Source: Verrucomicrobiia bacterium
GTDB lineage: Bacteria > Verrucomicrobiota > Verrucomicrobiia > Palsa-1439
Length of the DNA: 64,000 nt
Direction: 5' to 3'
NCBI GenBank assembly: GCA_049510215.1
Contig: JBEKZD010000002.1
Span: 117,846-181,845, forward strand
The notes under the pieces were generated by a model. That model saw nothing but the letters and a program-made list of their open reading frames with translations. It ran no database searches and had not been told where the DNA came from. Made by a program: the position numbers and the translations under genes. Positions 22,529 through 24,691 of the stretch are shown in pieces; position 1 is the stretch's first letter, and every line of letters begins with the position of its first letter.

Positions 22529-22726
22529 GTTTGAATCCTTTCTTTGAGTTAAAGGTCGCAGCAAATTTACTTCGCGCAAGTGTAGCTGTCGCACCCAACC
22601 TTGCTCGACCTGTTGCGATATTGCTCGAAAAGCGCAGATCGCGGAGCAAAGGAGAACAATGCTCTGAGTGGGTTTTCCTGGGAAAGCCTACATTGCACGA
22701 CTGTTTATTGATCAGAGATTTTCGTG

Positions 22727-23629
22727 CTACCGGTTGCACTCCAGCTTGCGATTGTACGCGCCACACTGATTCCGCAGCGGGCAGAGGTAATCCGGTTCCT
22801 TGTCGAACCACTCTCGCGAACCGCAATAGCCATCGCCAAAAGATAGATCGGGCGAAGGAACGACAAACCGCTGATAGCATCGCCCCTTGAAAATGCCGCA
22901 CATTTGAAACATGGGCTTCTGCTCCAGCTTTAAGTAGAAGTGCTGGAATATCTTTTCCTTCAGCGTGTGTACTCCCTGCCTCCACGTCTCAAGCTCGGCC
23001 AGAATGTCCTCGATGACGAAAGATTTCTGCGGACTTCCCAATCCTTGATGAAAGTAGGTTATCTTTTCCGTCTTCTCATCAAGGTGACAATGACCGGTCT
23101 GCCCGTGCGTGAGTTCTCGGCGAATTCGATACAAGCCGGGAAACCAAGTTTCATACGCATGGGCTAGAGCATCGTTCAATTCAGCGGGGAATCCAGATCC
23201 ATAGGCCTTCTTGCTTGCCCGGCTAAACAGCTTCTGTGTCGATTCATTTTGTACGCCTTGCACATTGCGATAGACGGAATAAATGAGCCGACGAATCCCA
23301 TCCAGACTTGAATACAACTCAGCGATCAACACTTCGAGCACCGCGCAGAATTCGCGATGATACCGCTGGTCGGACGATCCCCGCTCCGCAAACTGTTCTC
23401 TGTCGCGTTTCAGGTCTGGAATAATCCGGTTCGCGAGGCCGCCAAGCACAACGAATTTCTGATGATGATCGATGTACGTATTCGCGCCTTTGATTGCCTC
23501 GCGGTCAAAATGACCGGCGACGCCAACAAAATGAGAGAACTTCACCGACCAGTCCCACCGCCCCGGATTAAACATCAGGTGGAACGTAGTATCGAAGCCC
23601 GGTATGTCTTTCTCGTTAATCGTTCCCAT
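22727..23629 (-). CDS. hypothetical protein with HEPN-like Rx4H motif and Cys-rich C-terminus, in a low-GC islet
   Basis: 300 aa with no housekeeping similarity. RRELTHG (R-x4-H) sits in a predicted helical region. The C-terminus carries a Cys cluster (CGIFKGRC ... CGSREW ... CPLRNQCGAYNRKLEC). Surrounding DNA (22.6-24.0 kb) is visibly lower in GC. Confidence 0.45.
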   Translation of the reverse strand: MGTINEKDIPGFDTTFHLMFNPGRWDWSVKFSHFVGVAGHFDREAIKGANTYIDHHQKFVVLGGLANRIIPDLKRDREQFAERGSSDQRYHREFCAVLEVLIAELYSSLDGIRRLIYSVYRNVQGVQNESTQKLFSRASKKAYGSGFPAELNDALAHAYETWFPGLYRIRRELTHGQTGHCHLDEKTEKITYFHQGLGSPQKSFVIEDILAELETWRQGVHTLKEKIFQHFYLKLEQKPMFQMCGIFKGRCYQRFVVPSPDLSFGDGYCGSREWFDKEPDYLCPLRNQCGAYNRKLECNR

Positions 23630-24028
23630 TCGATAACAATCTTCGCCTCATCCCTCAACACCGGCAAGCTCCGAACGCGTTTGTTTGTATCAGGCGAAAA
23701 TAGCCCGTATGGTTCGCGCATGTCAATTTGGGATAAACTCCTCTTTCGCGTACAGTGGATACGCGCAGAATACGCGAGACGCAAAATCCTATGGAGTCCG
23801 GGCGTTGCAATTACGGCATCCGGGATTCTCAATCTCTAACCTGCATATTGTACCGGCGCCAATGAGCCGGTGTGATATGCACCTGAAGACCAATGGAGTG
23901 GGCCCTCCATTGGTCAGAGGCCGACAACGCAGAATGCGTTGTCGGGGTACGCCCCGACACTTGGCTGCTAGGGCCAATTGTCGGCCCTGCGGGCGCATAT
24001 TGCACAAGGGATCGTGCAATAATGCGGG

Positions 24029-24691
24029 CTAATCTCGAATCGAATCTCGAATTAAGATCGGCAGACTTAATAATTCGGCGATGTTCTGCAAAACGTGGTC
24101 GGCAGACGTGAGGTACTCTTTTCCCAAGGTGGTCTCGATGGCCACGCAGCGCATCCCCGCATTGCGTGCCGCCTCAATGCCGAGCGGCGCATTTTCCACT
24201 ACGACGCATTCTTCAGGACGCAATCCGAGTTGGCGGGCCGCCGTAAGAAAGGGATCAGGAAACGGCTTGGCTCGGGGAACCTCATCGCCTGTGATGATGA
24301 AATCAAAATGGGCCTGCTGCTCGCCATTGAGGGCATGCTGCATGTTCTTCAAGGCGCAGGCCGTGACGAGCGCCACTTTGAATCCGCGCCGGCGCAGCTC
24401 GTCGATTGTCTCAAATGCTCCGGGATATGTGGTGACCTGCACGATGGTCCGAAAATAGGCGCGCTTCTCCTCGATAAAGGCAGCCTGTCGGGCATCGGGA
24501 ATCGTGACCCCTGTTTCCTTCATGAGAATCGGCAGAATCTCTCGGGAGTTCCTCCCTTCGTGCAGAAGCACCGTCAGCTCGCTTACAGGGGAGCCGCCGT
24601 GTTTTTCGAACATGTGCTTCCAGGCAAGATAGTGGTAGTGAAGGGTATCGACGATCACGCCGTCGAGGTCGAATAACACACCGCGGATCAT
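24029..24691 (-). CDS. HAD-IA hydrolase (beta-phosphoglucomutase-like phosphatase)
   Basis: MIRGVLFDLDGVIVDT motif I, 220 aa. Confidence 0.8.
   Translation of the reverse strand: MIRGVLFDLDGVIVDTLHYHYLAWKHMFEKHGGSPVSELTVLLHEGRNSREILPILMKETGVTIPDARQAAFIEEKRAYFRTIVQVTTYPGAFETIDELRRRGFKVALVTACALKNMQHALNGEQQAHFDFIITGDEVPRAKPFPDPFLTAARQLGLRPEECVVVENAPLGIEAARNAGMRCVAIETTLGKEYLTSADHVLQNIAELLSLPILIRDSIRD

What the first reader, a model, noticed from the sequence alone, without database searches (positions are those of the whole stretch)
22600..24030. Lower-GC 1.4-kb islet carrying a single HEPN-motif, Cys-rich ORF: candidate defence, toxin or abortive-infection-type module
The only gene in the islet is 22727-23629 on the minus strand. 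It has no housekeeping similarity, carries an R-x4-H motif (RRELTHG) of the kind that defines HEPN RNase active sites, and ends in a 6-Cys cluster suggestive of a zinc ribbon. The islet is wedged between an aldo-keto reductase and a HAD hydrolase, and its GC is visibly lower. HEPN proteins are typical toxins of Abi, TA and other defence systems, and a lone HEPN ORF with a structured upstream RNA could be an uncharacterised system.
Basis: inference. Interest (0 to 1): 0.65.

Follow-up and report, generated by a model that had tools for sequence, protein, structure and literature searches.

The report
Unannotated HEPN-like RNase with Cys4 tail
A horizontally acquired, lone gene in a peat Verrucomicrobium belongs to a previously unannotated protein family that looks like a new branch of the HEPN toxin RNases joined to a four-cysteine metal-binding tail, and that elsewhere sits among anti-phage defence genes; it is a reasonable but unproven new single-gene defence candidate.

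Summary
ORF 22727-23629 (-) encodes 300 aa, carries RRELTH, has six C-terminal cysteines, lies between an aldo-keto reductase and a HAD hydrolase, and sits in the lowest-GC stretch of the window. No Pfam, NCBIfam, PADLOC, PHROG or PDB sequence match exists. An exhaustive profile search still finds 209 cluster representatives. Across 65 members (24% mean identity) E99, R170, H175, G179, R254, G267 and four cysteines are invariant. A pLDDT 94.8 model places R-x4-H at the end of a helix, the invariant Glu in the preceding long helix, an insert between them and a beta-hairpin after the motif. That matches the published HEPN description. Statistical support is weak: Foldseek best E 0.26-0.6 (HepT toxins the most frequent named family) and sub-threshold Pfam HEPN_Cthe2314/Swt1 matches. 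The cysteines form C-x24-C-x13-C-x5-C, which is not a zinc ribbon. Homologues lie beside R-M systems, HipA, ParE, AbiE, Mrr, integrases and IS elements, with no constant partner. The upstream hairpin array is real (z -7.7) but does not travel with the gene. Verdict: probably a new HEPN-superfamily family, a stand-alone conflict effector. Function is untested. Moderate interest.

The parts
22727..23629 (-). Protein-coding gene, 300 aa, member of an unannotated family of about 300-aa proteins
   Evidence: ORF listing. 209 family representatives at E<=1e-3, 98 at E<=1e-30. dN/dS 0.07-0.09 against homologues. The exact protein is indexed in 141 blocks of the assembly collection.
22931..23503 (-). 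HEPN-like helical core, residues about 43-233. Helix 43-83, helix 89-119 (invariant E99), insert 120-162, helix 163-175 (R170...H175), beta-hairpin 180-194, helix 209-233
   Evidence: AlphaFold2 model from 65 sequences, pLDDT 94.8, pTM 0.89. The topology matches the HEPN description in PMC3710099. Foldseek matches are weak, with HepT toxins the most frequent named family.
23105..23122 (-). R-x4-H motif RRELTH (R170-H175), the predicted RNase active site
   Evidence: Read directly from the sequence. R170 and H175 are invariant in 65 of 65 members; position 171 is D27/T17/N6/S5. Weak Pfam HEPN matches span it.
23333..23335 (-). Codon of invariant Glu99, candidate second active-site residue in the helix equivalent to HEPN helix-2
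   Evidence: Invariant in 65 of 65. Lies in model helix 89-119. PMC3710099 places the conserved acidic residue in helix-2.
22751..22912 (-). C-terminal beta-rich Cys4 domain, residues 240-293. Invariant C244, R254, G267, C269, C283, C289; signature C-x24-C-x13-C-x5-C-G-A-Y
   Evidence: Conservation and spacing. Modelled at pLDDT 95-97 per 10-residue block.
23697..23726 (-). Promoter-like site TTGACA-18 nt-TATTTT, 68 nt upstream of the ATG
   Evidence: Consensus scan, 10 of 12 matches. Only a pattern match; 2 sites found against 1.3 expected in shuffles.
23842..24020 (-). Array of tandem near-perfect hairpins between the HAD stop codon and the ORF promoter. Probably a terminator or insulator at the HAD 3' end. 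Window-specific, not part of the family module
   Evidence: Inverted repeats I7, I19, I20. Fold -101 kcal/mol, z -7.7. Unique in the window. No Rfam match. No similarity in other family loci.
22350..23850 (.). Low-GC segment (0.49-0.52 against about 0.60) that covers the ORF, its promoter region and the ORF-AKR spacer
   Evidence: Composition profile. Window-wide ranking.

Best explanation
The gene encodes a member of a previously unannotated protein family that is most likely a new family of the HEPN superfamily. The N-terminal helical domain would be a metal-independent endoribonuclease whose active site is built from the invariant R170-x4-H175 motif and the invariant Glu99. As in other HEPN enzymes, it probably becomes active as a homodimer or higher oligomer that brings two motifs together. 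Fused to it is a C-terminal beta-rich domain of about 55 residues held by four invariant cysteines (C-x24-C-x13-C-x5-C). This domain probably binds a metal (Zn or an Fe-S cluster) and serves as an RNA-binding or trigger-sensing module. The gene is a self-contained, horizontally mobile unit. In other genomes it lies in defence islands and on conjugative plasmids beside R-M, toxin-antitoxin and Abi systems, with no constant partner. The likeliest role is a stand-alone conflict effector of the abortive-infection type, kept inactive until an infection cue activates it, as shown for RAZR/PD-T7-4. Shown here: the family exists, the conservation pattern, the confident fold and topology, purifying selection, atypical composition, and variable defence-rich contexts. 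Inferred: HEPN homology, RNase chemistry, oligomerisation, metal binding, and the defence role and its trigger.
For: The family is real and constrained: 209 representatives; invariant E99, R170, H175, G179, C244, R254, G267, C269, C283, C289 at 24% mean identity; dN/dS 0.07-0.09. HEPN features as defined in PMC3710099: the motif is at the C-terminal end of helix 163-175; a polar residue follows R in 55 of 65 members; the invariant acidic residue is in the preceding long helix; there is an insert between those helices; a beta-hairpin follows the motif, as in Csx1. Foldseek against the PDB, with two independent models, gives HepT/MNT-HEPN toxins (5yep, 7ae6, 7ae8, 7bxo, 6m6u, 8yuf, 1ylm) as the most frequent named family among the top hits. 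Pfam HEPN_Cthe2314 is hit by 4 of 65 members (best E 0.0033) and HEPN_Swt1 by 1. The two HEPN_Cthe2314 matches seen in detail both span E99-R-x4-H and place the Arg near the same profile position by my interpolation. Context: type II R-M pairs (L001 with a 4-bp overlap to the REase gene, L013), Mrr, HipA x2, ParE x4, AbiEii, a LmuA/DUF4297-NACHT-like gene, HNH, ORF6N/PDC-S05, FRG, integrases, IS110, Toprim. Mobility: proteins 81-84% identical sit in three unrelated contexts, each 8-12 GC points below its flanks. Precedent for a lone, antitoxin-less HEPN plus Cys4 protein acting in abortive infection: RAZR (PMC13017515).
Against: No search reaches statistical significance for HEPN. Pfam, NCBIfam and PADLOC give nothing for the window protein. 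The family profile finds no PDB sequence. The best Foldseek E-values are 0.26-0.62, with TM 0.4-0.55 on the target and rmsd 7-10 A, and generic helical bundles are interleaved. hhalign against RnlA is null. The Glu is not in an E-x3-[KR] context. The window residue after R170 is Arg, not N/D/H. In the window the gene has no defence neighbours, lies among housekeeping genes, and is fixed in every strain-level contig read. That also fits a domesticated cellular function. No family member was found in viral contigs. No experiment bears on activity.
Confidence: 0.5

Rival explanations
1. It is not a HEPN protein. It is a different helical enzyme or nucleic-acid-binding protein in which the conserved Arg, His and Glu and the Cys4 (possibly Fe-S) domain serve another chemistry, for example a DNase or a redox- or metal-dependent enzyme. 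It would still be a mobile conflict-associated gene.
For: No significant HMM, profile or fold match to any HEPN family. R-x4-H is a short motif. The two core helices are unusually long (41 and 31 residues) compared with the roughly 130-150-residue HepT chains that Foldseek returned. The Cys spacing resembles neither zinc ribbons nor any family I could match.
Against: Five independent HEPN descriptors are met together: motif, its position at a helix end, a polar residue after R, an acidic residue in the previous helix, and an insert between those helices. The only recurrent named hits in both Pfam and Foldseek are HEPN families. A His-Me/HNH reading is disfavoured: no strand residue of the hairpin is an invariant His (H182 in 22 of 65, H194 in 42 of 65), and no HNH structure appears among the listed top 50 Foldseek hits.
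Confidence: 0.2
2. It is a HEPN toxin of an addiction or toxin-antitoxin-type selfish module rather than an anti-phage effector. An antitoxin or repressor is encoded elsewhere, or by the small upstream gene seen in some clades, and the module persists by post-segregational killing or simple hitch-hiking on mobile elements.
For: A small same-strand gene sits immediately upstream in several clades: XRE-type HTH in L012 and L128 (12-13 nt gap), and a conserved 101-aa protein in L115, L116, L118 and L121 (53-54 nt gap). Neighbourhoods are rich in TA genes, integrases, IS elements and conjugative plasmids.
Against: There is no upstream partner in the window, L001, L006, L013 or the Bradyrhizobium plasmid, so a partner is not obligatory. 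The window copy is chromosomal, among housekeeping genes, and fixed. TA and defence roles are not mutually exclusive.
Confidence: 0.15
3. It is a domesticated cellular RNA-processing or regulatory RNase (or a catalytically silent RNA binder) that the Verrucomicrobium acquired horizontally and now uses for a housekeeping task.
For: In the window it lies between metabolic and aminoacyl-tRNA synthetase genes. It has its own promoter-like site. It is 100% conserved with its flanks across all strain-level contigs read, and the exact protein is indexed in 141 blocks of the collection. It is under strong purifying selection.
Against: Distribution is extremely patchy: 7 close homologues in 5.8 billion proteins, and none in the 80 GlnRS-anchored loci fetched from related genomes. 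The position differs in each close homologue. Composition is still atypical. Family-wide neighbours are defence and mobile genes, not RNA-metabolism genes.
Confidence: 0.1
4. It is an accessory subunit of restriction-modification systems, for example a second-line RNase or a regulator coupled to the REase. The window copy would be an orphan left after loss of the R-M genes.
For: Its start overlaps by 4 bp the end of a SacI-like REase gene that follows a Dam-type MTase in L001-L005. It is adjacent to an N6_N4 MTase and a BglII-like REase in L013 and to Mrr in L123. PMC3710099 describes many HEPN families embedded in R-M operons.
Against: Most loci have no R-M genes next to it. The R-M types differ and lie on different sides. 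No R-M remnant is visible in the window.
Confidence: 0.05

Closest known systems
RAZR / PD-T7-4 (ring-activated zinc-finger RNase; PMC13017515)
   Same: A single polypeptide that combines a divergent HEPN-type RNase domain with a four-cysteine module. It is a stand-alone gene without an antitoxin. It provides a precedent for such a protein being harmless until a phage protein activates it, with abortive-infection logic.
   Different: The domain order is reversed: RAZR has an N-terminal Cys4 zinc ribbon and a C-terminal DUF4145 HEPN. RAZR's catalytic residues are R146 and H154 (7 residues between them), against R-x4-H here. No DUF4145 hit in Pfam and no PADLOC hit. The cysteine spacing here lacks CxxC knuckles. 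RAZR does not appear among the listed top 50 Foldseek PDB hits. Any resemblance is by convergence, not membership.
HepT / MNT-associated HEPN toxins (type VII TA; PDB 5yep, 7ae6, 7bxo)
   Same: The most frequent named family among the top structural matches of both models. R-x4-H motif at the end of a core helix. Small helical RNase toxins that act as dimers (PMC3710099; PMC13017515).
   Different: Those chains are 130-150 residues and pair with an MNT nucleotidyltransferase antitoxin that AMPylates them. Here there is no MNT neighbour in the window, the protein is twice as long, it has a beta-hairpin insert and a Cys4 domain, and the matches are not significant (E 0.26 or worse, rmsd 7-10 A).
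Pfam HEPN_Cthe2314 (PF18730) and HEPN_Swt1 (PF18731) families
   Same: These are the only Pfam families hit repeatedly by family members. The matches cover the Glu helix through the R-x4-H motif and agree with each other in register.
   Different: All scores (12.8-15.8 bits in the matches seen in detail) are far below the gathering thresholds (27.1 and 27.5 bits). 60 of 65 members, including the window protein, do not hit either family.
Csx1/Csm6-type CRISPR-associated HEPN domains
   Same: [quoted passage not shown]
   Different: No CARF domain, no CRISPR-Cas neighbourhood, and no sequence or Foldseek match to Csx1/Csm6 among the listed hits.
Stand-alone HEPN defence proteins ApeA, Tha, and AbiD/AbiF/AbiJ/AbiU2/AbiV
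   Same: Single-gene or minimal HEPN effectors that act by abortive infection and are often embedded in R-M operons or defence islands (PMC3710099; titles and abstracts).
   Different: No PADLOC or Pfam model of these families matches. None is known to me to carry this C-terminal Cys4 domain (own knowledge, not tested).

Membership tests
HEPN superfamily | Conserved Rx4-6H motif | tested here: met
   R170-x4-H175 is invariant in 65 of 65 members at 24% mean identity.
HEPN superfamily | [quoted passage not shown] | tested here: met
   In the pLDDT 94.8 model the motif occupies the last turns of helix 163-175. It is followed by a hairpin and then helix 209-233 (definition).
HEPN superfamily | Residue after the conserved R typically polar (N, D or H) | tested here: met
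   Family: D 27, T 17, N 6, S 5 of 65. The window protein itself has R.
HEPN superfamily | Second conserved acidic residue in helix-2, often in an E-x3-[KR] motif, proximal to the motif | tested here: inconclusive
   E99 is invariant and lies in helix 89-119. The E-x3-[KR] context is absent. Spatial proximity could not be measured because no coordinates were available.
HEPN superfamily | Four-helix up-down bundle recognisably similar to solved HEPN structures | tested here: inconclusive
HEPN superfamily | Significant profile match to a HEPN family (HMM or profile-profile) | tested here: not met
   Window protein: 0 Pfam families at E<=10. Members: HEPN_Cthe2314 best E 0.0033, below the gathering score. 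Family profile against PDB: nothing. hhalign against RnlA: probability 0.07%. HHpred against Pfam/PDB could not be run.
HEPN superfamily | Metal-independent RNase activity that depends on R and H | not testable with these tools
   Needs biochemistry.
   The four invariant Cys are spaced C-x24-C-x13-C-x5-C in 53 of 65 members. A CxxC occurs in 1 of 65.
RAZR / PD-T7-4 | N-terminal Cys4 zinc ribbon followed by a DUF4145-type HEPN domain | tested here: not met
   The order is reversed. There is no DUF4145 (Pfam) and no PADLOC hit. Architecture taken from PMC13017515.
HepT-MntA type VII toxin-antitoxin | Adjacent MNT nucleotidyltransferase antitoxin gene | tested here: not met
   No such gene flanks the ORF in the window. 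None of the immediate neighbours annotated in detail is an MNT-type gene. The only nucleotidyltransferase neighbour is an AbiEii toxin in Bradyrhizobium.
His-Me finger / HNH nucleases (rival considered) | beta-beta-alpha core with an invariant catalytic His at the end of strand 1 | tested here: not met
   Strand 180-184 has no invariant His (H182 in 22 of 65). The invariant H175 is in a helix. There are no HNH hits among the listed top Foldseek matches.
Genomic island / mobile element insertion | Integrase or transposase, tRNA target, or flanking direct repeats | tested here: not met
   No tRNA in the window. No convincing flanking repeats. No mobility gene next to the ORF. Only atypical GC and non-syntenic close homologues point to transfer.

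The most novel reading that the evidence does not exclude
The family is an independent, so far unrecognised single-protein anti-phage immune system. Its C-terminal Cys4 (Zn or Fe-S) domain would act as the sensor of a phage-derived or redox cue that switches on an N-terminal HEPN RNase. This is the same logic as RAZR but evolved separately, with the reverse architecture and a new metal-binding fold. It spreads between phyla (Verrucomicrobiota to Bradyrhizobium plasmids) as a one-gene cassette.
Probability: 0.3. Interest if true: 0.6.

Novelty: new variant of a known kind. Interest (0 to 1): 0.42.

Why it matters
If the assignment is right, this adds an unannotated, moderately widespread family (209 clusters at 50% identity) to the HEPN toxin RNases. 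It has a distinctive architecture (HEPN core, post-motif hairpin, novel Cys4 tail) and a confident structural model, and homologues exist in cultured Bradyrhizobium strains (WP_049808081.1) that make it testable. Stand-alone HEPN effectors such as RAZR, ApeA and Tha have recently shown unexpected activation mechanisms, so a new sensor domain on a HEPN core is a plausible route to a new trigger-recognition mode. The family is invisible to the Pfam, NCBIfam and PADLOC releases tested here, so such genes are currently annotated only as hypothetical. However, new HEPN families in defence islands are an expected kind of discovery, so the surprise to a specialist is limited.

Tried and rejected
1. 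Direct family assignment. Pfam, NCBIfam, PADLOC, PHROGs and PDB phmmer on the window protein gave nothing beyond chance (MukF E 0.06; phrog_16681 E 0.34).

2. Word-indexed homologue search with the 65-sequence alignment returned only 8 proteins and no names. It was not useful.

3. Consensus sequences of the family and of subclades against Pfam gave no hits.

4. Family profile against PDB sequences found only a designed helical bundle at E 0.7.

6. Profile-profile test against a bona fide HEPN family. The supplement of PMC3710099 holds no alignments. No HepT/MNT pair exists in the 1.67 Mb of sequence fetched by then, the 64-kb window included. My remembered accession for pNP40 is not in the plasmid collection. 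hhalign against single-sequence E. coli RnlA was null and uninformative.

7. Synteny in relatives. The 80 GlnRS-anchored loci are at most 75% identical in GlnRS and lack AKR and HAD as well, so they do not test islet absence. Exact-protein look-ups return only identical strains.

8. Family alignment A3 was too divergent for the search for related loci. The viral-contig scan with A4 found no member.

9. Rfam on the islet at E<=1 found no RNA family. No intrinsic-terminator-like site was found.

10. The His-Me/HNH reading of hairpin plus helix was rejected for lack of an invariant strand His.

11. The zinc-ribbon reading of the Cys cluster was rejected on spacing.

12. Flanking direct or inverted repeats as insertion scars: nothing convincing.
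Full report
**1. The observation**

The ORF at 22727-23629 on the minus strand exists and encodes 300 aa from an ATG. RRELTH is residues 170-175, at 23105-23122 (read). Six of the protein's eight cysteines lie in the last 57 residues. Precomputed Pfam calls on identical contigs identify the neighbours as an aldo-keto reductase and a HAD-family hydrolase.

The GC drop is the extreme of the window. Windows of 1.4 kb average 0.597 (sd 0.023). The islet is 0.521 and the window minimum, 0.506, starts at 22451. Only 11 of 1252 windows are as low, and all of them overlap this spot. 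ORF GC3 is 0.61 against 0.67-0.88 for the flanking genes. The low-GC stretch runs from about 22350 to 23850.

**2. A real gene and a real, unannotated family**

No Pfam, NCBIfam, PADLOC or PHROG model and no PDB sequence matches the protein. The word-indexed search of 5.8 billion proteins found only seven relatives. An exhaustive HMMER search with a five-sequence profile found 209 cluster representatives at E<=1e-3, 98 of them at E<=1e-30, and most are about 280-310 aa.

In 65 full-length members with 24% mean column identity, ten positions are invariant: E99, R170, H175, G179, C244, R254, G267, C269, C283 and C289. Against its 81-82% identical homologues the gene shows dN/dS of 0.07-0.09. The family also occurs in cultured bacteria: seven Bradyrhizobium plasmids, six of them conjugative, carry a 33% identical 'hypothetical protein' (WP_049808081.1).

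**3. Fold and the HEPN question**

With five sequences AlphaFold2 gave a mediocre model (pLDDT 65). With 65 sequences it gave pLDDT 94.8 and pTM 0.89. The elements, in order, are:

- helix 43-83;
- helix 89-119, which carries E99;
- an insert at 120-162 with two short helices;
- helix 163-175, which ends in R170...H175;
- a beta-hairpin at 180-194 and a short strand at 204-206;
- helix 209-233;
- a beta-rich domain at 240-293 that holds the four invariant cysteines.

The HEPN survey (PMC3710099) defines the domain as a four-helix up-down bundle. [quoted passage not shown] A polar residue usually follows the R. A second conserved acidic residue lies in helix-2. [quoted passage not shown] In Csx1 a beta-hairpin follows the motif directly. 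The family meets each of these descriptors. Position 171 is D/T/N/S in 55 of 65 members.

Statistical support is weak but coherent. Foldseek against the PDB with both models finds nothing at E<=0.001, yet HepT/MNT-HEPN toxin chains (5yep, 7ae6, 7ae8, 7ae9, 7bxo, 6m6u, 6m6w, 8yuf, 1ylm) are the most frequent named family among the top 50, interleaved with generic and designed helical bundles. In Pfam scans of all 65 members, HEPN_Cthe2314 is the family hit most often (4 members, best E 0.0033) and HEPN_Swt1 is hit once. The two HEPN_Cthe2314 matches I could inspect (P0143 residues 102-236; P0026 residues 92-215) both span the Glu helix through the R-x4-H. By my interpolation from the coordinates, both place the Arg near profile position 118.

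A His-Me/HNH reading of the hairpin-helix unit is disfavoured. No strand residue is an invariant His, and no HNH structure appears among the listed Foldseek hits.

**4. The cysteine domain**

Their spacing is fixed at C-x24-C-x13-C-x5-C in 53 of 65 members, followed by G-A-Y, and there is an invariant R254 and G267. A CxxC occurs in only 1 of 65 members. This is not a zinc ribbon. A metal site (Zn or Fe-S) is the natural inference, but it is untested.

**5. Genomic context and mobility**

Homology between the window and other family loci is confined to the ORF, nucleotides 8-903. Proteins that are 81-84% identical lie in three unrelated contexts, and in each the gene is 8-12 GC points below its roughly 59% GC surroundings.

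Contexts seen across 27 non-redundant metagenomic loci and one Bradyrhizobium plasmid locus:

- RelB/ParE, then a Dam-type MTase, then a SacI-like REase whose gene overlaps the family gene's start by 4 bp (L001-L005);
- an ORF6N/PDC-S05 protein (L006);
- HipA/HTH upstream and an HNH gene downstream (L011);
- an XRE-type HTH upstream and a LmuA/DUF4297-NACHT-like gene overlapping downstream (L012);
- an N6_N4 MTase and a BglII-like REase (L013);
- Mrr (L123), an FRG-domain protein (L112), and an SF1 helicase (L125);
- an AbiEii/AbiGii toxin gene 96 nt upstream, with IS elements on both sides (Bradyrhizobium plasmid).

Pooled scans of 141 neighbours gave ParE x4, Toprim x3, HTH_3 x3, HipA x2, Mrr x2, integrase x2 and IS110 x2. 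PADLOC hits included several type II MTases and REases, type IV REases, MkoC, TmtA, DinG, mad2 and PDC-S02/S05/S15/S68.

No partner is universal. An XRE HTH (L012, L128) or a conserved 101-aa protein (L115, L116, L118, L121) lies directly upstream in some clades. No family member was found in viral contigs.

In the window itself there are no defence neighbours, no tRNA, no mobility gene and no convincing flanking repeats.

The host is a Verrucomicrobiota bacterium (best GlnRS identity 75%). The exact protein is indexed in 141 blocks of the collection. Every contig read that carries the identical HAD gene keeps the order HAD-ORF-AKR, and the 1.6-kb region is 100% identical in all eight loci shown from the two look-ups. 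The gene is therefore fixed at strain level. Whether near relatives lack it could not be tested, because the catalogued relatives are too distant.

**6. The upstream structured region**

The region 23830-24030 (-) folds into a row of hairpins at -101 kcal/mol (z -7.7). Three of them have near-perfect stems of 11-16 bp at 23842-23945. They are unique in the window, match no Rfam family and have no counterpart at other family loci.

They lie between the HAD stop codon (24029) and a promoter-like site for the ORF (TTGACA-18-TATTTT, 23726 to 23697). The predicted 5' leader of the ORF is unremarkable (z -1.1). The simplest reading is a terminator or insulator array at the 3' end of the HAD/GlnRS transcript. 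It may shield a potentially toxic gene from read-through. That reading is inference.

**7. Mechanism proposed**

Shown: a conserved, selected, horizontally mobile, single-gene family with an invariant E...R-x4-H constellation on a confidently predicted helical core with HEPN topology, a conserved Cys4 domain, and defence-rich neighbourhoods.

Inferred: metal-independent endoribonuclease chemistry (H as general base, R and E in support, as proposed for HEPN in PMC3710099); activation through dimerisation or oligomerisation; the Cys4 domain as a metal-dependent RNA-binding or trigger-sensing module; and a role as a stand-alone abortive-infection-type effector.

RAZR/PD-T7-4 gives a direct precedent. 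It is a lone HEPN plus Cys4 protein that is non-toxic until a phage protein assembles it into an active form (PMC13017515). This family is not a RAZR homologue: the order is reversed, the HEPN type differs, and no model matches.

**8. Verdict**

The HEPN-like toxin or defence candidate stands, and the family-wide conservation and context strengthen it. The zinc-ribbon label and the link to the structured RNA do not hold, and HEPN membership is not statistically established.

This is best described as a probable new family or architectural variant within the HEPN superfamily. That makes it a new variant of a known kind. It is of moderate interest, and cultured Bradyrhizobium homologues make it directly testable.

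Noticed in passing
window 23842-24020 (-): Array of five or six tandem hairpins, three with perfect or near-perfect 11-16-bp stems, directly 3' of the HAD gene. Fold -101 kcal/mol, z -7.7. Unique in the 64-kb window, with no Rfam match and no U-tracts. Possibly a factor-independent terminator or insulator array, or a relic of the insertion junction.
   Followed up: partly
window 18651-18817 (-): c-di-AMP riboswitch (RF00379, 52.9 bits, E 2e-09). It sits just before a gene that identical contigs annotate as an AA_permease_2 transporter.
   Followed up: no
window 20306-24792; compare L027, L033, L036, L040, L045: In several related Verrucomicrobiota the GlnRS and GluRS genes are convergent and adjacent or nearly so (gaps from a short overlap to about 1.9 kb). 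In the window, about 4.5 kb separates them (CDP-alcohol phosphatidyltransferase, a 56-aa ORF, AKR, the HEPN-like ORF, HAD). The space between the two synthetase genes looks like a variable spot.
   Followed up: partly
L098/L101 (ERZ27250022 k141_432904) against the window near 21500: One contig with identical HAD, ORF and AKR genes diverges right after AKR. It has a 148-aa ORF, a BPSS1860-family gene and a glycosyltransferase in place of the 56-aa ORF, CDP-OH-P transferase and GluRS. This is a rearrangement breakpoint or an assembly chimera next to the islet.
   Followed up: no
L115:2894-3199, L116:221-526, L118:5643-5948, L121:5642-5947: A conserved 101-aa protein with no Pfam match lies 53-54 nt upstream of the family gene, on the same strand, in one subclade. 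It could be an antitoxin, a regulator or a partner.
   Followed up: partly
L012:1548-3335: The gene overlapping the family gene's stop encodes a protein of at least 596 aa, with an N-terminal LmuA/DUF4297-like (Cap4-type nuclease) region and a weak NACHT-like ATPase match. It is preceded by a CapH/C-protein-like XRE regulator. This may be a three-gene defence module.
   Followed up: no
L131:6342-8852 (B. japonicum plasmid pBjCNPSo34b, NZ_CP139648.1): A family homologue (WP_049808081.1) lies 96 nt downstream of an AbiEii/AbiGii toxin gene and its likely AbiEi partner. The cluster is flanked by IS21, IS3 and IS256 elements on a conjugative plasmid. This offers a cultured, tractable host for experiments.
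   Followed up: partly
L014:1537-2580, L106:1243-1992, L120:685-1656: Genes immediately downstream of family members (34-45 nt gaps) encode proteins of 249 to at least 348 aa with no Pfam match. They are unrelated to each other by BLAST.
   Followed up: no
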